The translations under genes were made by a program, and so were the position numbers. From a virus (lineage: Duplodnaviria > Heunggongvirae > Uroviricota > Caudoviricetes), in IMG/VR virus record IMGVR_UViG_3300028988_000007, positions 1 to 13,667 of that record: a DNA stretch of 13,667 nucleotides, one strand, 5' to 3'. A model generated the notes under the pieces. That model saw only the letters and a list, made by a program, of their open reading frames with translations, was not told the origin of the DNA and did no database searches. Below, one piece after another: positions 786-7,823 of the stretch (position 1 is its first letter; each line of letters opens with the position of its first letter).

Positions 786-1346
786 TCAGGAAGGAAGGGT
801 TATTTCGGTGTGATGTTCGATATCGCCGTCAGGCCCGTTACCGGGCTCGAGATAATCAACATCAATCGCCAGCGTTTGCAGTTCATCCAGACTGTTCAGA
901 TCATCCTGCTGGCGGGTATCGTCTTCAGTCAGCTCGCTGATGACCGAAAAATCGAACTGATAAATCAGCTCATGACGATTCAGATCCAGCAGCGTGCCGC
1001 CGTCATAGGTAATCGGGTTACCGCACGCTTCCGGGTTCCAGCCCAGCAGGGCCTTAAAGAGCATCTGCCGGACATCGTCCACCACATCATACGAGGCAAA
1101 CTGACCGCGCTCATCACGCCCGTTACTCAGTATGACAACCACGGAGAAGCCCTCTTTCAGCTCCTGCCAGTAGTCGGTCTGGCTTTTGTTTTCTCCCGGA
1201 GAGTCATCACCCGGTACCACATACGCCGCCGGGAGTCTCAGCTTTCCGACCTCCGGCAGATTTTTGAACTGTGCCGCGCCTGCCACCCGGTTTTCAAAAT
1301 ACGGGCAGCGGGCACGCAGCGCAGCAATAACAGGCGTCAGTTTCAT
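786..1346 (-). CDS. Phage neck/tail-completion protein (putative tail terminator; family not confidently recognised)
   Basis: 186-aa ORF whose ATG overlaps the stop of the upstream gene (ATGA at 1343-1346); acidic C-terminal half; position between an HK97 gp10-like gene and the sheath-like gene is where tail terminator/completion proteins lie in Mu-like tail modules. Confidence 0.45.
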   Translation of the reverse strand: MKLTPVIAALRARCPYFENRVAGAAQFKNLPEVGKLRLPAAYVVPGDDSPGENKSQTDYWQELKEGFSVVVILSNGRDERGQFASYDVVDDVRQMLFKALLGWNPEACGNPITYDGGTLLDLNRHELIYQFDFSVISELTEDDTRQQDDLNSLDELQTLAIDVDYLEPGNGPDGDIEHHTEITLPS

Positions 1347-1849
1347 CTGTGTCGTCGCTCCGGCTTCAGTGATTTACGCAATTCCCGCGCCAGAAAATAG
1401 CGTGTCCAGCTGCGGTTCTTTTCAAGAGTTTCCACCATGAAGTTATTACGTGGAGCCAGTCGCCAGCCGCTGCCACCGGATGCACCACGATGATGACTAC
1501 GACGACGTTTTGCTCCTCCCCGGACACCAAAAAACAGAAATGCCGGATAGAAGTCACCAGAGATCATCCGGTTCCCCTTCCCGTTGCGCTGGTTAGGGGC
1601 AATGCGTGTCATAAAACCGGCTCGCTTTTTACTGGCTCTCGGCACCATATAACCAATCGAACGAGCCAGGCGTCCGGTCTGATAACCGGGGTTTTCACCT
1701 GGTGCCGACCGCGCACGGCGCATCACCAGCCGACGGGCATCACGCATATGACGCTGCCCAATCGTGACAAACGCCCGCCGGACACGGGCGCGGTTAAAGC
1801 GCATCTCGGCGGGCTGCTGAACATCAACGTGAAAAAAGGGAGTCGCCAT
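1343..1849 (-). CDS. HK97 gp10-like tail/neck component (very arginine-rich)
   Basis: 168-aa ORF with GGAGG RBS 4-5 nt upstream of ATG at 1847-1849; segment ...RVRRAFVTIGQRHMRDARRLVMRRARSAPGENPGYQTGRLARSI... resembles the conserved core of HK97 gp10-family proteins (...VDTG.LR.SI...); directly follows the head-tail adaptor gene. Confidence 0.5.
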   Translation of the reverse strand: MATPFFHVDVQQPAEMRFNRARVRRAFVTIGQRHMRDARRLVMRRARSAPGENPGYQTGRLARSIGYMVPRASKKRAGFMTRIAPNQRNGKGNRMISGDFYPAFLFFGVRGGAKRRRSHHRGASGGSGWRLAPRNNFMVETLEKNRSWTRYFLARELRKSLKPERRHR

Positions 1850-2234
1850 TGCTGCCTCCGTGACTCTGCCTACATTCGCCCAGCTCCGTACACTCCAGCA
1901 GCAGAAAGCGCCGCGCCCCGTTCAGATCACGCTGACGTTTCACCCGGTACACACTGTCATCACAGACCACCTCATAATCAGCAGTGATCCCCCGGCGGTA
2001 ACGAATGGTGATGTAATGGGTGATGGCGTCCCCGGTCTGCGCGGTTTCCTGCCAGGTGGTGGCACTGGTCTGGATAACCTTCGCCCATGTCCGGAACGTA
2101 ACCGGGTATTGAGGCTCCACGCCAAAGTTATCCGCGGGCATATCCACCCGCTGGCGGATCAGGACGCGTTTATTCAGTTCACCGGGGTCCGGCAGAATGT
2201 AGGTTGCGCTGGTCTGCGCCTGACGAATTTTCAT
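1824..2234 (-). CDS. Head-tail adaptor / head closure protein (Phage_H_T_join-like)
   Basis: 136-aa ORF; ATG overlaps connector stop (ATGA at 2231-2234); C-terminal pattern ...ITIRYRRGITADYEVVCDDSVYRVKRQRDLNGARRFLLLECTEL is typical of head-tail joining proteins; conserved gene order after the gp6-like connector. Confidence 0.7.
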   Translation of the reverse strand: MKIRQAQTSATYILPDPGELNKRVLIRQRVDMPADNFGVEPQYPVTFRTWAKVIQTSATTWQETAQTGDAITHYITIRYRRGITADYEVVCDDSVYRVKRQRDLNGARRFLLLECTELGECRQSHGGSNGDSLFSR

Positions 2235-2554
2235 TGCGGAAAGTACCTGTACGGGCCGACAAGCCAGCCAAAACTCTGCGGCATGTCGAGTTTCTCCACT
2301 TCCGTAACCGACGAGCGGTTTTCGTAAAAATGGCTGATAAGCATCAGCATCCCCAGACGAATATCATCCGGCAGGTGCAGCCCGTCCGGATCGCTGTCCG
2401 GAATGGTTTCATCCGGTGCATAGAGCTTCCGGTTCAGATACGTTTCCGTCCGCTTTTGTGCCGCACAGGCCAGCAGTTGCAGATGGCGGTCATCAGCATC
2501 GAAATCCTCATCCAGCCGGAGTTGGGCTTTAATCTCTTCCATTGTCAGAAGCAT
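2231..2554 (-). CDS. gp6-like head-tail connector protein
   Basis: 107-aa ORF MLLTMEEIKAQLRLDEDFDADD...; AGAGGG RBS 6 nt upstream of ATG at 2552-2554; N-terminal EE(I/V)KAQLR(L/I) motif and size match gp6-like head-tail connector (DNA-packaging) proteins; position after capsid gene. Confidence 0.75.
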   Translation of the reverse strand: MLLTMEEIKAQLRLDEDFDADDRHLQLLACAAQKRTETYLNRKLYAPDETIPDSDPDGLHLPDDIRLGMLMLISHFYENRSSVTEVEKLDMPQSFGWLVGPYRYFPQ

Positions 2555-2556
2555 AC

Positions 2557-2757
2557 TCAGCCCTCTTTACTGGTCGTGGCTTTTTTCTCTTTTGCCGCTT
2601 TACTGCTTTTTGCACTGATTCCGCGCTCTGCTAACCCGGCCTGAAGTGCAATCTCCTGCACCCGGGCAGGAAGTGCCCCGTCGTCATACTCACCGGCCCG
2701 AATGACCTCAACACGCATACCGTCCGGTGACCATTTCAGATCTTGTTTCAGGATCAT
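2557..2757 (-). CDS. Small hypothetical protein (66 aa) with Lys-rich C-terminus, between capsid and connector genes
   Basis: ATG at 2755-2757; stop 2 nt before the connector ATG (tight coupling); sequence MILKQDLKWSPDGMRVEVIRAGEYDDGALPARVQEIALQAGLAERGISAKSSKAAKEKKATTSKEG; weak RBS (GGTGAAGAA). No family recognised. Confidence 0.5.
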   Translation of the reverse strand: MILKQDLKWSPDGMRVEVIRAGEYDDGALPARVQEIALQAGLAERGISAKSSKAAKEKKATTSKEG

Positions 2758-2780
2758 GATTCTTCACCCGTCAGAACAGG

Positions 2781-2798
2781 GGGCGCGGTTCCGCGCCC
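2781..2798 (-). terminator. GC-rich stem-loop immediately 3' of the major capsid gene (putative attenuator/partial terminator or mRNA stabiliser)
   Basis: Perfect inverted repeat GGGCGCGG (2781-2788) / CCGCGCCC (2791-2798) with 2-nt spacer, 8 nt after the capsid stop codon (2807-2809); no strong U-tract follows on the minus strand, so probably only partial termination. Confidence 0.45.
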
Positions 2799-2806
2799 TT
2801 GAGTGA

Positions 2807-4012
2807 TTACGCCGCTGCAATCTTCAGCAGTTTGATGGCCTGCGAATCGACCAGCATCCCGCCGGTGCGCTTGGTGGTATAAAAACCGACAAACGGTTTA
2901 TTGGTGTACGGGTCACGCAGAATGCGGGTGCCGATACGGTCAACGATGGTGTAACCCCGTTTGAAGTTACCAAATGCAATGGCTTTCGCATCAGCGGCGA
3001 TATCCGGCATCTGTTCGTTTTCAGCGATACCGTAACCCGCCAGAGAGGACGGCTGCCCCAGTTCCAGCCCCGGACGCCACAGATAGTTACCCTCGCTGTC
3101 TTTAAGCAGACGGATGGCAAACAGGCTGTTGTTGTTCATCATGAACTTCGCGCCAGTGCGGTGTGCCTTACGCAGCGTGTAAATCAGTTTGATAATGGCG
3201 TCTGCGGTCACCGCGGTCGCTTCGCCGGATACAATATGCTGAAGTTTGCCGAACGCCCGGACCTTGTCGGTTTCATCAGTGGATTCATACGCCAGGAACC
3301 CTTTCGGCTTCTTGGTGCCATCGCCTGAGGTAAAGGCAATTTCTTCCTGTTCGGCAAATTCGGTTGCCAGCTCGCTGTTGATCCAGGCCTCCACGTTGAA
3401 GAAGGCATCGTCCAGCATTTTCTGGGTAGCCTGCGGGTTGCCGTAAATTTCCCCCATGAGAGGTTCAATCAGCTCCAGTCTGGAGGTGGCAGTCTGGGAT
3501 CGCGTATCCGTTTCCCCCACCCATCCGGAAGCCGTACCGCCCAGATTCGCCAGTTTTTTGTAGTCGGAACCGCCAACGGTGATCACCGTGGCTTCCTGAC
3601 GCATCACCACTTCATCTTTCAGCAGGTTAAGAATGTTGCGATCCAGTTCTTCCGGCACGGCGTAGCCACCGTCTTCATCGGTACCCACCTGCAATGCCTT
3701 ACGCTCCAGATCGCGCAGACCGTCTTCACGGCCTTTACGCAGGAAGCCCACAAACGCCTCTTTATGCTCGGTGGCCAGTTTATTTTGCGCTCCACCAGCC
3801 GGACGTTTCAGCTCAAGCAGCTCTTTTTCAAGGTCGCTTTTGAGATTTTCCAGCTCGCTGAGTTTCCCGTTCAGGGTTTCCACCTGCCCGGCAAGCTTGC
3901 CTTTTTCCTGCTCAATCGCATCCACGCGCTTGTCGTTCTTTGCTTTGAAGTCGTCAAACTTCTGCTGCAGCTCCTGCGCGACCTGTTCGACATCTTTAAT
4001 ATCAACCGCCAT
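2807..4012 (-). CDS. Major capsid protein, HK97 family
   Basis: 401-aa ORF; AGGAG RBS 7 nt upstream of ATG; N-terminal coiled-coil-like delta/scaffold domain (KEL..LNGKLSELENLKSDLEKELLELK) followed by a capsid core with ...LLKDSEGNYLWRPG... resembling HK97 gp5; lies directly after the prohead protease gene, as in HK97. Confidence 0.92.
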   Translation of the reverse strand: MAVDIKDVEQVAQELQQKFDDFKAKNDKRVDAIEQEKGKLAGQVETLNGKLSELENLKSDLEKELLELKRPAGGAQNKLATEHKEAFVGFLRKGREDGLRDLERKALQVGTDEDGGYAVPEELDRNILNLLKDEVVMRQEATVITVGGSDYKKLANLGGTASGWVGETDTRSQTATSRLELIEPLMGEIYGNPQATQKMLDDAFFNVEAWINSELATEFAEQEEIAFTSGDGTKKPKGFLAYESTDETDKVRAFGKLQHIVSGEATAVTADAIIKLIYTLRKAHRTGAKFMMNNNSLFAIRLLKDSEGNYLWRPGLELGQPSSLAGYGIAENEQMPDIAADAKAIAFGNFKRGYTIVDRIGTRILRDPYTNKPFVGFYTTKRTGGMLVDSQAIKLLKIAAA

Positions 4013-4026
4013 CGTATTTCTCCTGA

Positions 4027-4677
4027 TTAGAAGTTCAGATTTTTCAGTGCATTCAGTGCAGAGCCCACATCCTCAGCGTCGCGCAGGGACAGTGCGCTAT
4101 AGCCCCCGGCCATGAATGCTTTGGCCTGGGTGCGGGAGAGTCCGACATCACGCAGGACTCTTTCGATTTTTTTCTGTTCGGGGATTTCCCCGCGGGCCAG
4201 TGCGTTCTTGACGTCGCTGATCCGCGCCTCGTCGTTAGACGGGAACGTCACCAGGCTGACTTCCCAGAGGTCGATTTCTTTCAGCAGAAAGGCTTCTTTG
4301 CTCCGGTCGTATTCCCAGTCTTTCAGGACGTACCCAATAGAAAGGCCGGTTAACGAACCGGCCTTCATGTGTGCATGTGCGCGTTTTGCGAGGGGATCAT
4401 CATCAATAAGCAACCGTCCCCTGACGTAAAGCCCGACATCGTCTTCCTTCATTTCGGTGTAAACACCGATGGGTTCATCCATGCGGTGCTGCCAGAGCAG
4501 CGCAGGTAACGCTTTTCTGTCACTCCACGCCCGCAGGGAAGCAGCAAATGCCCCGGACATCACCACATCATCGTGGCTGTCCTTTACACCAAAGACGGAG
4601 CCATACCCTTCAAACTCACCGGAGTCACTGACAGATTTCAGACTCAGCGGTACATCAAGACGTTGTTTCGTCTGCAT
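4027..4677 (-). CDS. Prohead maturation protease, HK97 family (S78/U35-like)
   Basis: ORF track gives 4027..4713 (228 aa); I prefer the internal ATG at 4675-4677 (MQTKQRLDVPL...) because it has an AAGGA RBS about 8 nt upstream, whereas the 4713 ATG has none and would overlap the portal by 59 nt. Motif ...GEFEGYGSVFGVKDSHDDVVMSGAF... is typical of HK97 prohead proteases. Confidence 0.85.
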   Translation of the reverse strand: MQTKQRLDVPLSLKSVSDSGEFEGYGSVFGVKDSHDDVVMSGAFAASLRAWSDRKALPALLWQHRMDEPIGVYTEMKEDDVGLYVRGRLLIDDDPLAKRAHAHMKAGSLTGLSIGYVLKDWEYDRSKEAFLLKEIDLWEVSLVTFPSNDEARISDVKNALARGEIPEQKKIERVLRDVGLSRTQAKAFMAGGYSALSLRDAEDVGSALNALKNLNF

Positions 4678-5896
4678 TGGCGTTATCCTTCTGCTTACCG
4701 GCTTTACTGCCATCGGAGGGTTTCGTGGTCATGTTCATCGGTGTGAGATAGACATCACCACCGGGACGCGGATTCATATCTTCCAGGTCGCGGCAGTCAT
4801 TGGGAGAGTAAATTCCCCAGTTGATCCCGGTGGCGTAGGCTTCAAAACGGGACTTCATATCCCCGCGCAGTAACGCCCCGGCGTTAAATTTGGCGTAATA
4901 AACGCCCTGCTTACTTTTTCGTACCAGTCCGGTGTTGATCCGCTGTTCGATGCGGGTCAGATACGGCACCAGTGAATAGTTGATAAATCCCAGCCCCAGC
5001 TCTTCGATATTGTTGAAGGTGGCGCGATCGGTGTTCTGCACCATGTGCAACGGCACCCGGAACAGACGACAGATTTCTTCAAGCTGAAACTTGCGGGTTT
5101 CCAGGAACTGGCTGTCCTCGGCGTTCAGCGCCATCGACTTCCAGTCCAGCCCCATCTCAAGGATCATCGGGCGGTGAGCATTGCCAAGCCCGGTGTGACG
5201 CTCCTCAAAATCTTTCTTCAGGCGCTCATAAGCCTGATCTGACAGCGTCTGCTCTGTACGCAACACACCCGACGTCACCGCGCCATTGCTGAACAGTCTG
5301 GCCCCGTGCTCTTCGGTCGCAGCTGCCAGCGATATTGCCTCGCGGGCATAGGCGATGGGATTCAGCCCCACCAGTCCGTCCAGCGTCAGCGTGCGCACAT
5401 GCCAGATATCCTCCTGGCTCAGTACATCCGTGGAGCCATCCGGGAATGTGACCTGATAGATCGGCTCCCAGCTACTGTTAAGCTTCGGTACCACACAGCC
5501 GGGATCGACGGGCAGCAGTTCAGCCACTTCGCCAAATGCTTTCACTTTGTAGGCGTAAAAGTTTCCCCGCAGGCACAGACAGGTGACCACCAGCTCCCAG
5601 AACTCCTGCGGCGTCATATAGCCATTGGGATGCGTGGAGATCAGTTTATGCAGACGTTCGCCGGTGGCTCTCTGTTTCAGGCTGCCGTTCAGGTGATACA
5701 GGTTGCAGGGCAACATCCCGACCGACTCCGCCAGCACCCTGACGCAGGAAAAAACCGCCGTCAGTCGCATGGCCCGCTGGCTGCTGATCTGCTTTCCGGT
5801 ATAGGTGTCATATGACAGCCCGATAGCATCCGCCAGCTCTGCTGGCGTGGTCACCGGTGCGTCACTTTTTCGTTGAAATAATCCCGAAAAGAACAC
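4655..5896 (-). CDS. Portal protein, HK97 family
   Basis: 413-aa ORF; the start codon at 5894-5896 is GTG, preceded by a strong GGAGGT RBS with 5-nt spacer; size, position (between terminase and protease) and sequence are consistent with HK97 gp3-like portal proteins. Confidence 0.88.
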   Translation of the reverse strand: MFFSGLFQRKSDAPVTTPAELADAIGLSYDTYTGKQISSQRAMRLTAVFSCVRVLAESVGMLPCNLYHLNGSLKQRATGERLHKLISTHPNGYMTPQEFWELVVTCLCLRGNFYAYKVKAFGEVAELLPVDPGCVVPKLNSSWEPIYQVTFPDGSTDVLSQEDIWHVRTLTLDGLVGLNPIAYAREAISLAAATEEHGARLFSNGAVTSGVLRTEQTLSDQAYERLKKDFEERHTGLGNAHRPMILEMGLDWKSMALNAEDSQFLETRKFQLEEICRLFRVPLHMVQNTDRATFNNIEELGLGFINYSLVPYLTRIEQRINTGLVRKSKQGVYYAKFNAGALLRGDMKSRFEAYATGINWGIYSPNDCRDLEDMNPRPGGDVYLTPMNMTTKPSDGSKAGKQKDNANADETTS

Positions 5897-6078
5897 TATT
5901 TACCTCCGCCGACAGACGGCTGTGTACGGTCGAGATATCGCGCCACCAGCCACGACCAGAACAGGCACAGCGCCCCGGCAACAACAAACCCCGCCGGGGG
6001 ATAAATCAGCCAGGCACCATACGCCAGCAAAAGCGCACCCAGCACGCCCACCAGAGGCGCGAGAATCAGCATGATCAT
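5896..6078 (-). CDS. Small hydrophobic protein (60 aa, two predicted TM helices) inserted between large terminase and portal genes
   Basis: ATG at 6076-6078 with GAGGT RBS about 6 nt upstream; sequence [60 protein letters not shown] is two hydrophobic stretches separated by a PPAG turn; its stop (TAG 5896-5898) overlaps the portal GTG start. Confidence 0.55.
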
Positions 6079-6089
6079 AATTACCTCAG

Positions 6090-7823
6090 TTAAAGCGAGC
6101 GGATCCCATAGGATTCAATGTGGTCAGACAGCGTGTCTTCTTTCTCGTACAGCATGGCTCTGCCAACCGCCATAATCAGCGCAACTGCACCATCGATTTT
6201 GTTTTCCGCCTGCTCTTTGACGGGCTTCACCACATCATCGTTACCCGGAATGGTTTTGCCGACCACGTTGCCGATACACCAGGTCATGATGGGATTGCCA
6301 TCATGATGAAAGCGCCCCGATTCAATTGCCGCTTCCAGCTCTTTCATCGGGTCGGACATGTTGGTGTAGTTCTGAATGATGGTGACGGGGTTCAGGTCTT
6401 CATCAGCAAGGTCATGTGAGAGCCCGGTCGCCCCGAAGGGGTCGATGGGTGACTCGCTGACCGGGCTGATTTTGTTCGCCGCTTTGGCCTCTTCGAGGAT
6501 GTAGCGATAATCCACCTCTGCACCATCGGTAACGGTCAGGACGCCCATTTCCACCCATTTCTGAAAGCGTTCGGCTGTCCGTCGATCTTCATTTTTCTCG
6601 ACGCTGTACACCGTGTCATACGGTACCCAGAAACGCGGGGCCACACTGTAGTAATGCGTTTTACCGTCAATCTCGCGGGTATAAAGTCGCGCCATGCTGT
6701 TCATATCCAGCTTACGCGCCAGGTCAAAGGCCAGAATGCACGGCTGCCCCTCGAACTGCTCAAGGGTCAGTGATTTATCCTCGCAGCTCTGCCAGCTTAC
6801 CAGGTTGAAATACGCCGAACGCGCCGACACCCAGATATTGAGGTGTTTTGTTTTAAAGACGTTTGCCAGACGGGCGTTATTTTTCGCACGCTGCTGCTGA
6901 CTTAACAAAAATTCGCGATAAACCGACACGCCAATATTTGGATTGGCTTTTTCCAGCACCTGCGGGTCGGTCCAGTCGTCACCTTCATCAACGGTATAGA
7001 TGATCCCGAACAGTTCATCGTTGGGTACCGAACCGTTGAGCATCTCGATGACTTCCCGCCGTTTGTCGTAGCACGGCCCCTCAATGTTGTACCCGGCGGT
7101 AGTGATAGCCCACATCAGTGGCTGACGTCGCGCCCCCATCCCGGTAAGCATCGTGGTGTAAAGCGCATCTGTGGCGTGCTCGTGATATTCATCCACCACC
7201 GCACAGTGGGGTGATGAACCATCACCAGGGTTACCGATCAGCGGTTCAAAACGCGCACCATCCTCCGGACGGTTCATGTTTGAGGCGTTAACCTCAATCC
7301 CGAACGCTTCCGTCAGCATGGGTGTGCGTTTACACATCAGTCGTGCCGGACGAAAGACTTCCCACGCCTGTTTCTCCGTCGTGGCACCGGAATACACTTC
7401 CGCGCCAAACTCGTTATCACAGGCAAAACAATACAGGGCAACACCGGCAGAGATTGCCGATTTGCCGTTCTTACGGGGGATTTCGGTATACACCTCCCGG
7501 AAGCGGCGCAATCGGGAGCCTTTATTGACCCAGCCAAACGCACAGCAGATCACAAATAGCTGCCACGGCTCCAGCGTGATGGGCATCCGTTTAAATGCCC
7601 ACTCACCCTTGGTGTGCGGCAACAGCTGAATAAATTTGGCGGCCCGTTCAGCCAGGTCCTTGTCGAAGCGGTAACGAAACGACTTACTTTTTTCCGCCAT
7701 CAGGTCATCAAGATGGCGCTGGCAGGCCTGAATCACAAACTGGCAGGCCACAATCTTTCCGCGCACGACATCACGGGCATACTGATTGGCAGCATTTACG
7801 TTGGGGTAAGATTTCCGGCTCAT
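6090..7823 (-). CDS. Terminase large subunit
   Basis: 577-aa ORF; its ATG overlaps the small-terminase stop (ATGA at 7820-7823); N-terminal ATPase region with Walker A-like [12 protein letters not shown] and C-terminal nuclease region; conserved position upstream of portal. Confidence 0.93.

What the first reader, a model, noticed from the sequence alone, without database searches (positions are those of the whole stretch)
5896..6078. Small two-helix membrane protein gene wedged between large terminase and portal
HK97-type packaging modules normally run terL directly into portal. Here a 60-aa ORF with two hydrophobic segments, its own GAGG RBS and a stop overlapping the portal GTG start sits in between. 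A membrane protein is not expected in a head-assembly operon; small TM proteins at such positions are candidates for morons (for example superinfection exclusion, toxin or holin-like functions), or it may be spurious.
Basis: partly seen in the sequence, partly recalled or inferred. Interest (0 to 1): 0.45.

Follow-up and report, generated by a model that had tools for sequence, protein, structure and literature searches.

The report
YmfR: conserved membrane hairpin beside portal
The small ORF is real: it is ymfR, an already annotated prophage gene of unknown function that encodes a 60-residue two-helix membrane protein, and it is an old, fixed part of the terminase-portal junction in many HK97-like phages, not a recently acquired add-on gene.

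Summary
A 60-codon ORF lies on the minus strand at 5896-6078, 11 nt after the terL stop. It has a GAGGT ribosome-binding site, and its TAG stop shares one base with the portal GTG start.

It is YmfR (E. coli e14 prophage gene; PHROG 502, "membrane protein"), found in about 1,160-1,580 of 5,426 complete E. coli genomes and in phages ST64B, SfI, SfII, SfIV and phiP27.

It is protein-coding and under purifying selection:
- dN/dS is about 0.1-0.4.
- It is intact in 80 of 80 close relatives, with 16 synonymous and 5 non-synonymous variant sites.
- The predicted fold is an N-in/C-in helical hairpin.

The "moron" reading is not supported. No promoter-like site was found, there is no room for a terminator, and the composition matches the neighbouring genes. 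The family sits in the same slot in Alpha-, Beta- and Gammaproteobacteria, Ruminococcaceae and Acidobacteriota. It is present in 65 of 73 diverged portal relatives, always with a 1-nt stop/start overlap with portal, whatever the terL type. HK97 itself lacks it. SfV and PY54 carry unannotated members. Gram-positive Sfi21-like phages have an unrelated 59-residue two-segment protein (DUF1056) in the same slot.

Function is untested. My best guess (about 0.4) is a late, membrane-embedded accessory of portal or prohead initiation.

The parts
5896..6078 (-). ymfR coding sequence (60 codons plus TAG). Member of the YmfR / PHROG 502 family of small two-helix membrane proteins.
   Evidence: ORF and translation. 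RefSeq name 'protein YmfR' in E. coli genomes. phrog_502 E=1.7e-28. dN/dS 0.10-0.40. Intact in 80 of 80 close loci.
6083..6087 (-). Shine-Dalgarno GAGGT, 4 nt upstream of the ymfR ATG (6078-6076).
   Evidence: Read from the sequence. The context TTAACTGAGGTAATT-ATG is identical in 79 of 80 close loci.
6004..6075 (-). Codons 2-25: first transmembrane helix. G14 is invariant, G21 is 98% conserved and G11 53% (L/I/M otherwise).
   Evidence: Hydropathy. AF2 helix 2-25. Column conservation over 106 unique family sequences.
5989..6003 (-). Codons 26-30, Y-P-P-A-G: tight turn on the periplasmic side and the family's signature motif.
   Evidence: Helix break at residue 26. K+R in the loop is 0.05 per sequence, against 1.14 at the N end and 2.45 at the C end, which gives an N-in/C-in topology. 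The terminator-like hairpin flagged here by the scan (6002-5988) is these codons.
5941..5988 (-). Codons 31-46: second transmembrane helix. G35 is invariant, position 42 is S or G in 92% of sequences, and A46-R47 ends the helix.
5899..5940 (-). Codons 47-60: short, variable, basic cytoplasmic tail. Its last codons (G-G-G-K) carry the portal Shine-Dalgarno GGAGG (5903-5907).
   Evidence: Sequence. The family's C-termini are enriched in GGE, GGK, KEG, DEG and the like, which are SD-encoding codons.
5894..5898 (-). TAGTG: the ymfR stop and the portal GTG start share one base (translational coupling).
   Evidence: In all 45 non-redundant hairpin-bearing loci of a diverged portal clade, the candidate portal start codon nearest the hairpin stop overlaps that stop by 1 nt (44 at exact offset 0, one at +1).
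4655..5896 (-). Portal protein gene (HK97 family), the downstream coupled partner.
   Evidence: Pfam Phage_portal E=6e-108.
6090..7823 (-). Large terminase gene, the upstream neighbour. The mosaic boundaries seen in relatives fall in its last ~18-80 nt (at ~6108 and ~6170), so ymfR travels with portal.
   Evidence: Pfam TerL_ATPase + TerL_nuclease. The SfV match ends at about window 6170. The phi467 and 606R7 matches begin at about window 6108.

Best explanation
SHOWN. The ORF is ymfR, a real protein-coding gene. Its product is a 60-residue helical hairpin predicted to sit in the inner membrane with both ends in the cytoplasm. It has a 5-residue periplasmic turn (YPPAG). The two helices probably pack through small residues (G14 with S/G42, G21 with G35).

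The gene has no detectable promoter or terminator of its own. It lies in the late operon in a chain of closely spaced or overlapping genes: terL, an 11-nt gap with an SD, ymfR, a 1-nt stop/start overlap, then portal. It belongs to a large family that occupies this same slot in HK97-type head modules (HNH, terS, terL, X, portal, protease, capsid) across several bacterial phyla. It is inherited together with the portal gene even when the terL type is swapped.

INFERRED (the mechanism I commit to). YmfR is made only during lytic growth, in amounts tied to portal translation. It acts in the membrane as a non-essential accessory of the portal or prohead-initiation step. It would place portal synthesis or assembly at the inner membrane in one of two ways: as a small membrane tether or chaperone, analogous in role to T4 gp40 for the gp20 portal, or simply through co-translational insertion, which drags the coupled portal-translating mRNA to the membrane. 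It is not a lysogenic-conversion or exclusion gene.
For: Identity and reality.

Topology and fold.

No own transcription signals, and native composition. ymfR mRNA is co-induced with other e14 genes under SOS stress: PMC10012262.

Strict synteny. Relatives 58-66% identical in Klebsiella, Enterobacter, Buttiauxella and Yersinia all keep the arrangement. So do distant members in Alpha- and Betaproteobacteria, Lysobacterales, Ruminococcaceae and Vicinamibacterales: of 16 analysed loci, 11 lie between an identified terL and portal, 2 short contigs show portal directly downstream, and 3 are disrupted or degraded.

Portal linkage:
- 65 of 73 portal relatives (37-83% identity) carry a member.
- The terL in those 65 loci is of three different types: 30 window-like, 18 HK97-like, 17 SfV-like.
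- Divergence of the hairpin tracks portal (Spearman 0.71) more than terL (0.54).
- Natural recombinants phi467 and SfV break inside the terL 3' end.

Coupling: the 1-nt overlap is present in all 45 non-redundant loci.

The family was never found in an unrelated context. The two off-context copies are in degraded remnants or unidentifiable surroundings.

Precedent for a viral membrane factor in portal initiation: T4 gp40, gp20 and YidC (PMC9958956).

An unrelated 59-residue protein with two hydrophobic segments (DUF1056) fills the same slot in Streptococcus phage Sfi21. This suggests the slot itself has a function.
Against: No experiment bears on function.

The cytoplasmic parts are short (about 6 residues at the N end and 10 at the C end) and poorly conserved. 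The last codons are constrained by the portal SD. That leaves little surface for specific binding to a soluble portal.

HK97 itself and 8 of 73 relatives lack the gene, with terL abutting portal, so it is dispensable for assembly.

HK97-family portals are known to assemble without membranes (background knowledge).

Co-inheritance with portal could simply reflect the 1-nt overlap leaving no recombination site.

I could not run a multimer structure prediction.
Confidence: 0.4

Rival explanations
1. It is a late membrane effector unrelated to head assembly. The hairpin would oligomerise or bind a host membrane component to tune lysis timing (holin- or antiholin-like), alter membrane potential, or block DNA entry late in infection. 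It would sit in the packaging module only for co-expression.
For: It has the generic class-II-holin-like shape: about 60 aa, two TM helices, N-in/C-in, a basic C-tail, and Gly/Ala/Ser-rich helices in many members. Conservation is concentrated in the membrane-embedded part. One distant member gives a weak hit to an actinobacterial holin family, E=0.098. From background knowledge, T7 places its spanin genes 18.5 and 18.7 between terS and terL, and P2 embeds lysis genes among morphogenesis genes.
Against: The window already has a complete lysis cassette 4.5 kb upstream: P21-type holin S (E=2e-35), phage lysozyme, and Rz with Rz1. No significant Pfam holin hit and no PADLOC hit. A context-independent effector would be expected in other genomic contexts, but the family is essentially confined to the terL-portal slot and follows the portal.
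Confidence: 0.25
2. It is mainly a cis-acting translational device. Translating the ORF delivers ribosomes to the portal start, setting the portal:terL ratio, or targets the late mRNA to the membrane. The peptide itself would be incidental.
For: The 1-nt stop/start overlap is present in all 45 non-redundant loci. The portal SD is embedded in the last codons. In many relatives the hairpin start overlaps the terL stop. Where the ORF is absent, terL is itself coupled to portal: an ATGA-type overlap in 5 of 8 loci.
Against: Strong amino-acid-level constraint across phyla and GC contents: invariant G14 and G35, the YPPAG turn, dN/dS 0.1-0.4, 16 synonymous against 5 non-synonymous sites. Direct terL-portal coupling would achieve the same without 180 nt of extra coding. 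There is no excess RNA structure.
Confidence: 0.1
3. One reading: a moron expressed from the prophage, such as superinfection exclusion, a toxin or another lysogenic-conversion function.
For: It is a small membrane protein. PHROGs files phrog_502 under 'moron, auxiliary metabolic gene and host takeover'. HK97 gp15 is a membrane-protein moron with an exclusion function (background knowledge).
Against: No promoter-like site was found on the coding strand, and there is no terminator, since the stop overlaps the portal start. GC3 equals that of the neighbours. The position is ancient, syntenic and spans phyla. In K-12 it is co-induced with other e14 genes under SOS stress. The window's real moron-like gene is bor, on the opposite strand.
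Confidence: 0.05
4. It is a spurious ORF in a non-coding terL-portal spacer.
For: It is short and there is no Pfam or NCBIfam model. It is unannotated in SfV, SfIV and PY54.
Against: Purifying selection and frame conservation. A family of hundreds of clusters. An SD at the right distance. No RNA signal.
Confidence: 0.01
5. It is a lambda-W-type head-tail joining (adaptor) protein, as several GenBank phage records label it.
For: It has the same position as lambda W, between terL (A) and portal (B). It is labelled 'head-tail joining protein W' in ON470584, ON470603, ON470580 and PQ793804.
Against: BLASTP finds no alignment at E<=100. gpW is hydrophilic with no hydrophobic segment. The window has its own gp6-like connector and head-completion genes downstream.
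Confidence: 0.01

Closest known systems
YmfR (E. coli K-12 e14 prophage, b1150) / PHROG phrog_502 'membrane protein'. Includes ST64B Sb3, phiP27 L37 and SfII_03.
   Same: It is the same gene: 98-100% identical protein, same neighbours, same length.
   Different: Nothing structural. The family has no assigned function. The literature search found only gene lists and one transcriptome table.
phrog_7105: the unannotated 53-aa ORF of phage SfV and its relatives.
   Same: Same slot between terL and portal. Two hydrophobic segments. The start overlaps the terL stop (ATGA). It scores 23.9 bits against the YmfR-family HMM, where 2,000 shuffles reach at most 9.5, and it cross-hits phrog_502 at E=5.7e-6. 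It is intact in 79 of 79 loci.
   Different: It lacks the YPPAG turn motif, is shorter, and goes with a different portal subtype.
Pfam DUF1056 (PF06341) / phrog_1142, e.g. Streptococcus phage Sfi21 orf59c.
   Same: 59 aa with two hydrophobic segments, located exactly between terL and an HK97-family portal in a terS-terL-X-portal-protease-capsid module.
   Different: No detectable homology. hmmscan gives no hit at E<=10 and hhalign probability is 0.2%. The only link is one weak cross-hit, E=1.2e-3. It has an 18-nt gap before portal instead of an overlap. Its function is also unknown, and no paper in the library mentions DUF1056.
T4 gp40 (viral factor for the membrane-bound gp20 portal initiator).
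   Same: It is a precedent for the proposed role. [quoted passage not shown]
   Different: This is an analogy of role only. No sequence comparison was made. T4 gene 40 is not adjacent to the portal gene (background knowledge). T4 has a different portal and capsid lineage.
Lambda gpW (head-tail adaptor encoded between A and B).
   Same: A small gene in the terL-portal slot, with overlapping start and stop codons.
   Different: gpW is soluble and hydrophilic, with no similarity.
Class II holins / pinholin S21 and the HK97 gp15 moron.
   Same: Small inner-membrane phage proteins. S21 has the same two-TM, N-in/C-in layout.
   Different: The window has its own S21-family holin next to the endolysin. 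YmfR hits no holin family and has no moron transcription signals.

Membership tests
YmfR / PHROG phrog_502 | Significant match to the family profile over the full length. | tested here: met
   phrog_502 E=1.7e-28, residues 1-55 of 60. 98-100% identity to proteins that RefSeq names YmfR.
YmfR / PHROG phrog_502 | Position between terL and an HK97-family portal, with stop/start coupling to portal. | tested here: met
Pfam DUF1056 (PF06341) | Match to the Pfam model at or above the gathering score. | tested here: not met
   No hit at E<=10 for YmfR or 8 family members, while Sfi21 orf59c scores 39.5 bits. hhalign probability 0.2%.
Classical moron (Hendrix-type) | Own promoter and terminator flanking the gene. 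| tested here: not met
   No sigma-70-like site on the minus strand in 5500-6600. The stop overlaps the portal start, so no terminator can follow. The consensus scan is not proof of absence.
Classical moron (Hendrix-type) | Base composition different from the neighbours, and sporadic presence among otherwise similar phages. | tested here: not met
   GC3 is 0.69, against 0.64 and 0.68 for the neighbours. The gene is present in 65 of 73 diverged relatives and across phyla.
Classical moron (Hendrix-type) | Expression from the repressed prophage. | not testable with these tools
   The only data are that ymfR mRNA rises (log2 fold change 4.52) together with other e14 genes under an SOS-inducing drug (PMC10012262).
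Holin (class II / pinholin) | Two TM helices, N-in/C-in, charged C-terminal tail. | tested here: met
   This is a generic architecture only.
Holin (class II / pinholin) | Membership of a holin sequence family, and adjacency to the endolysin gene. | tested here: not met
   No Pfam holin hit for YmfR. The endolysin lies 4 kb away and has its own P21-type holin S next to it.
Holin (class II / pinholin) | Triggered hole formation or membrane depolarisation. | not testable with these tools
   Needs expression and membrane-potential assays.
Lambda gpW head-tail joining protein | Sequence or architectural similarity to gpW (soluble, 68 aa). | tested here: not met
   No BLASTP alignment at E<=100. gpW has no hydrophobic segment.
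Anti-phage defence components (PADLOC) | Match to any defence-system protein model. | tested here: not met
   No hit at E<=1 for YmfR, the SfV type or two distant members.
T4 gp40-like portal membrane chaperone (functional class) | Required for, or stimulates, membrane-associated portal assembly. | not testable with these tools
   This is an analogy of role only (PMC9958956). No sequence test was made.

The most novel reading that the evidence does not exclude
A dedicated small membrane-hairpin slot upstream of the portal gene is a widespread, ancient feature of HK97-type head modules. It is filled by the YmfR/phrog_502 superfamily in Gram-negative and some other phyla, and by the unrelated DUF1056 family in streptococcal and lactococcal phages. 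If so, membrane-associated portal or prohead initiation, so far a T4 peculiarity that depends on gp40, would be common among temperate phages.
Probability: 0.25. Interest if true: 0.65.

Novelty: already known. Interest (0 to 1): 0.33.

Why it matters
The gene itself is catalogued: YmfR in E. coli K-12, PHROG 502. The window therefore adds no new entity.

What matters is the reclassification. Databases file the family as a "moron" or mislabel it "head-tail joining protein W". The comparative data instead show a deeply conserved, portal-linked and translationally coupled part of the packaging and head operon.

An uncharacterised membrane protein present in roughly a quarter of complete E. coli genomes, and in model phages that can be manipulated (SfII, SfV, phiP27, PY54), is an easy target for experiments. 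If it does connect portal assembly to the membrane, that would extend a T4-specific idea to HK97-like phages. If instead it tunes lysis or membrane state, it would be a new class of late phage membrane effector.

Tried and rejected
- **Curated models.** Pfam and NCBIfam have no model for YmfR. PADLOC gives no hit. A PDB sequence search gives no hit at E<=1.
- **Fold search.** Foldseek of the AF2 hairpin against BFVD returned only uncharacterised small phage proteins, none at E<=1e-3. A helical hairpin is too simple for fold search to be informative.
- **Homology to DUF1056.** hhalign of the YmfR family against DUF1056 gives probability 0.2%.
- **RNA-level explanations.** The fold z-score is +0.68 and there is no Rfam hit. 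The 'putative rho-independent terminator' annotated inside the SfII homologue, and the terminator-like hairpin at 6002-5988, are coding sequence. The latter is the YPPAGFVV codons, and I did not treat either as functional.
- **Searches that failed or added little.** A genome-contig scan with a 45-sequence alignment failed because no stretch was conserved enough. It was repeated with 12 sequences. The first viral-contig scan with the family alignment returned only 98-100% identical loci, which were useful only for the intactness test. tblastn of family members against cultured phages is crippled by the low-complexity filter.
- **Literature.** Searches for ymfR, DUF1056 and 'between the terminase ... 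portal ... transmembrane' found no functional study.
- **Portal N-termini.** I compared them with and without the hairpin. The hydrophobic-then-basic N-terminal motif appears in both groups, so it does not discriminate.
- **Not attempted.** I did not fold a YmfR-portal fusion, because the tool has no multimer mode and the result would not be trustworthy.
Full report
**1. What is at the coordinates**

The ORF is on the minus strand, 5896-6078, with 60 codons starting at ATG. Upstream on the same strand is terL (6090-7823; Pfam TerL_ATPase and TerL_nuclease). Downstream is an HK97-family portal gene (4655-5896; Phage_portal, E=6e-108). The full module is HNH endonuclease, terS, terL, the small ORF, portal, S78 prohead protease and the HK97-fold capsid gene.

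The terL TAA ends at 6090. GAGGT (6087-6083) lies 4 nt before the ATG. The TAG stop (5898-5896) shares its G with the portal GTG. The portal's GGAGG (5907-5903) lies within the last codons of the small ORF.

**2. Identity**

An 801-nt query spanning the terL 3' end, the ORF and the portal 5' end matches 1,577 of 5,426 complete E. coli genomes, 1,162 of them over at least 80% of its length. RefSeq names the ORF there 'ymfR: protein YmfR', the e14 prophage gene of K-12.

Among cultured phages it occurs in ST64B (sb3), SfI, SfII, SfIV, phiP27 (L37), 118970_sal3 and others. It is mostly annotated '(putative integral) membrane protein', and in four records 'head-tail joining protein W'.

It matches PHROG phrog_502 ('membrane protein', filed under morons) at E=1.7e-28. 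It has no Pfam or NCBIfam model. The library held 14 papers containing the string 'ymfR'. The three I read use it only in gene lists or an expression table, and the other titles are unrelated or refer to a different gene. None addresses function.

**3. It is a real, selected protein-coding gene**

- In 80 close viral contigs the ORF is intact in all 80. The 19 distinct nucleotide sequences carry 16 synonymous and 5 non-synonymous variant sites.
- Against homologues of 58-80% protein identity from Klebsiella, Enterobacter, Buttiauxella, Yersinia, Mangrovibacter, Serratia and Edwardsiella, NG86 dN/dS is 0.10-0.40 at dS of about 0.6-3, mostly above 1. It evolves faster than terL or portal (0.02-0.08 where measurable) but is clearly constrained.
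- An exhaustive profile search of 1.84 billion representative proteins found 374 clusters (50% identity) at E<=1e-3. They are mostly 45-110 aa and share the core [15 protein letters not shown]...W-S-x-x-x-A-R.
- The RNA does not fold better than shuffled sequence (z = +0.68), and no Rfam family matches.

**4. Architecture of the product**

Hydropathy shows two hydrophobic segments. AlphaFold2 on a 62-sequence alignment gives helix 2-25, a break at residue 26, and helix 27-52, with mean pLDDT 75.

Over 106 unique family sequences, basic residues average 1.14 at the N end, 0.05 in the 5-residue turn and 2.45 in the C tail. By the positive-inside rule this is an N-in/C-in hairpin.

G14 and G35 are invariant. 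G21 is conserved in 98% of sequences, G30 in 92%, and position 42 is S or G in 92%. By their distance from the turn, G21 pairs with G35 and G14 with S/G42. This is my inference: the conserved residues are largely explained by tight packing of the two helices and a tight turn.

The cytoplasmic parts are short and variable. The last two or three residues (GGK, GGE, KEG and so on) are dictated by the portal's Shine-Dalgarno sequence.

**5. Not a moron**

- No sigma-70-like promoter is found on the coding strand within 5500-6600.
- The stop overlaps the portal start, so no terminator can follow.
- GC3 (0.69) matches terL (0.64) and portal (0.68).
- In K-12, ymfR mRNA rises (log2 fold change 4.52) together with ymfJ, ymfL, ymfM, ymfQ, xisE, pinE and tfaP under an SOS-inducing compound. 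This is the behaviour of a gene in the induced prophage programme (PMC10012262).
- By contrast, the window does hold a textbook moron-like gene: bor, on the opposite strand between the lysis and packaging genes.

**6. Deep synteny**

All diverged enterobacterial homologues that were looked up keep the arrangement HNH, terS, terL, a 9-12 nt gap, X, a 1-nt overlap, portal, protease, capsid.

A genome scan with a distant-member alignment retrieved 20 loci. They come from:
- Alphaproteobacteria (Shinella, Sulfitobacter, Reyranella, Rhizomicrobium);
- Rhodoferax;
- Lysobacterales;
- Mangrovibacter, Serratia and Edwardsiella;
- Ruminococcaceae MAGs;
- a Vicinamibacterales MAG.

I analysed 16 loci: 15 of these plus one short metagenome contig (L094).
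- In 11 the small ORF lies directly between an identifiable terL and an HK97-family portal.
- On 2 short contigs (L094, L095) a portal follows directly but no terL was identified.
- One locus (L109) has only a terL fragment upstream, though portal follows the ORF directly.
- One (L104) is a degraded remnant: small ORF, then fragments, then prohead protease and tape measure.
- One (L113) has no recognisable neighbours.

I found the family in no unrelated context.

**7. The gene follows the portal, not terL**

I used the portal of the Rhodoferax prophage as a probe and retrieved 75 viral contigs whose portals are 37-83% identical to it.
- Of 73 evaluable loci, 65 (89%) carry a family member (HMM E<1e-5) ending within 12 nt of the portal start.
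- In the other 8, terL abuts portal, with a gap of -10 to +86 nt.
- The terL genes of the 65 positive loci fall into three different best-match types: 30 window-like, 18 HK97-like and 17 SfV-like.
- Across 45 non-redundant loci, hairpin divergence correlates with portal divergence at Spearman 0.71, and with terL divergence at 0.54. Portal against terL gives 0.51. All Mantel p values are <=5e-4.
- In all 45 loci the candidate portal start codon nearest the hairpin stop overlaps that stop by one base (44 at exact offset 0, one at +1).

The same pattern appears close to home. Phages phi467 and vB_EcoM-606R7 combine a different terL with this ymfR and portal, with the boundary about 18 nt before the terL stop. 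SfV combines this terL, up to about 80 nt before its stop, with a different small ORF and portal. The exchanged unit is therefore the terL C-terminal tail, the hairpin and the portal. From background knowledge, the C-terminus of lambda gpA is the prohead-binding part of terminase, which would make that a co-adapted unit. Tight physical linkage alone could also explain it.

The HK97 clade itself lacks the gene: 80 of 80 loci are colinear and ungapped across the HK97 terL/portal junction.

**8. Unannotated and analogous occupants of the slot**

SfV has an unannotated 53-codon ORF (L003:2289-2450). Its ATG overlaps the terL TGA and it has two hydrophobic segments. It scores 23.9 bits against the family HMM, where 2,000 shuffles give mean 0.7, sd 1.8 and maximum 9.5. 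It matches phrog_7105 and cross-hits phrog_502 (E=5.7e-6). It is intact at 53 codons in 79 of 79 related loci. The annotated SfV portal start (2392) lies inside it and is probably too far upstream.

Yersinia phage PY54 has an unannotated 65-codon member (L116:2295-2492).

Streptococcus phage Sfi21 has orf59c, a Pfam DUF1056 protein (E=7e-10). It is 59 aa with two hydrophobic segments and sits between terL and portal. I could not show homology between DUF1056 and the YmfR family.

Lambda's occupant of the slot, gpW, is hydrophilic and unrelated. The 'head-tail joining protein W' labels on YmfR homologues are therefore positional mis-annotations.

**9. Mechanism**

Shown:
- the product is a small hairpin predicted to insert in the membrane;
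- the gene lies in the late operon, where the stop/start overlap implies translational coupling to portal (not tested directly);
- it is confined to this slot;
- it is co-inherited with portal;
- it is dispensable in some lineages.

Inferred: I favour, at about 0.4, a non-essential accessory role at the portal or prohead-initiation step carried out at the inner membrane. This could work through the protein acting as a tether or chaperone, in the way T4 gp40 supports the membrane-bound gp20 initiator (PMC9958956). It could also work through co-translational insertion, which would bring the coupled portal-translating mRNA to the membrane.

The main weakness is the tiny, variable cytoplasmic surface. 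The main rival, at about 0.25, is a late membrane effector that tunes lysis timing or membrane state. It has the generic shape of a class II holin. However, the window already has a complete P21-type holin, lysozyme, Rz and Rz1 cassette, and a free-standing effector would not be expected to stay glued to the portal gene. A purely cis-acting coupling ORF (about 0.1) fits the invariant overlap but not the residue-level conservation. The moron, spurious-ORF and gpW readings are each at most 0.05.

**10. Verdict**

The entity is already known and annotated (YmfR / phrog_502), with its function still unknown. Interest is moderate to low for the window itself. It would be higher if the conserved slot proves to link portal assembly to the membrane.

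Noticed in passing
L003 (phage SfV, U82619.2) 2289-2450: An unannotated 53-codon ORF with two hydrophobic segments lies between terL and portal. The annotated portal start (2392) lies inside it and is probably too far upstream. The in-frame GTG at about 2449, where the small ORF stops, fits better.
   Followed up: yes
L116 (Yersinia phage PY54, AJ564013.1) 2295-2492; also SfIV KC814930.1 2382-2483: Family members are present but not annotated in these GenBank records.
   Followed up: partly
GenBank ON470584.1, ON470603.1, ON470580.1, PQ793804.1: YmfR homologues are labelled 'head-tail joining protein W'. This is a positional mis-annotation, since lambda gpW is hydrophilic and unrelated. DUF1056 proteins likewise carry inconsistent source names: 'scaffold protein', 'phage tail protein', 'polyferredoxin'.
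   Followed up: yes
GenBank OR844959.1 'Enterococcus phage Efm 3-10' (1,764 bp, H18): A record attributed to an Enterococcus faecium phage is 96% identical to this E. coli/Salmonella prophage terL-ymfR-portal DNA. It is probably contamination or mislabelling.
   Followed up: no
window 9640-10810 (-): A complete lysis cassette: P21-type holin S (10595-10810, Pfam E=2e-35), phage lysozyme with a hydrophobic Gly/Ala-rich N-terminus that looks like a SAR signal-anchor (10098-10595), Rz (9640-10113), and an embedded Rz1-like lipoprotein ORF (9699-9881).
   Followed up: partly
window 9267-9608 (+): A Bor lipoprotein gene (Pfam Lambda_Bor, E=1e-30) lies on the opposite strand between the lysis and packaging genes. 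This is the window's real moron-like gene.
   Followed up: partly
window 10999-13587: Upstream of the holin there is no late-regulator gene. Instead there are an AraC-type HTH fragment (10999-11388, -), a 2-thiouracil desulfurase/DUF1722 gene (12080-13039, -) and a lipocalin (Blc-like) gene start (13231-, +). The prophage may end or be truncated near 10.9 kb.
   Followed up: no
window 6093-6170 (terL C-terminal ~26 codons): This stretch differs between the window and SfV, although the rest of terL is about 90% or more identical. The terL C-terminal tail is therefore exchanged together with the small ORF and portal.
   Followed up: partly
L353 (E. coli HS-02, NZ_CP172818.1) 529-690: A decayed e14-like remnant has a shortened 53-codon ymfR between terL and portal pseudogenes. 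In K-12 e14, ymfR is intact although the papers' gene lists show aaaE and beeE flanking it, which are the terminase and portal pseudogenes (background knowledge).
   Followed up: partly
protein 8 (family member from L144/L145): One YmfR-family member gives a weak hit to phrog_1142 (the DUF1056 PHROG), E=1.2e-3. This is either a hint of very distant kinship or shared transmembrane composition.
   Followed up: no
L109 (Reyranella MAG) 1215-3447: terL appears disrupted. A fragment at 1215-2153 is followed by a 266-aa minus-strand ORF (2318-3118) before the hairpin and portal. This may be an insertion.
   Followed up: no
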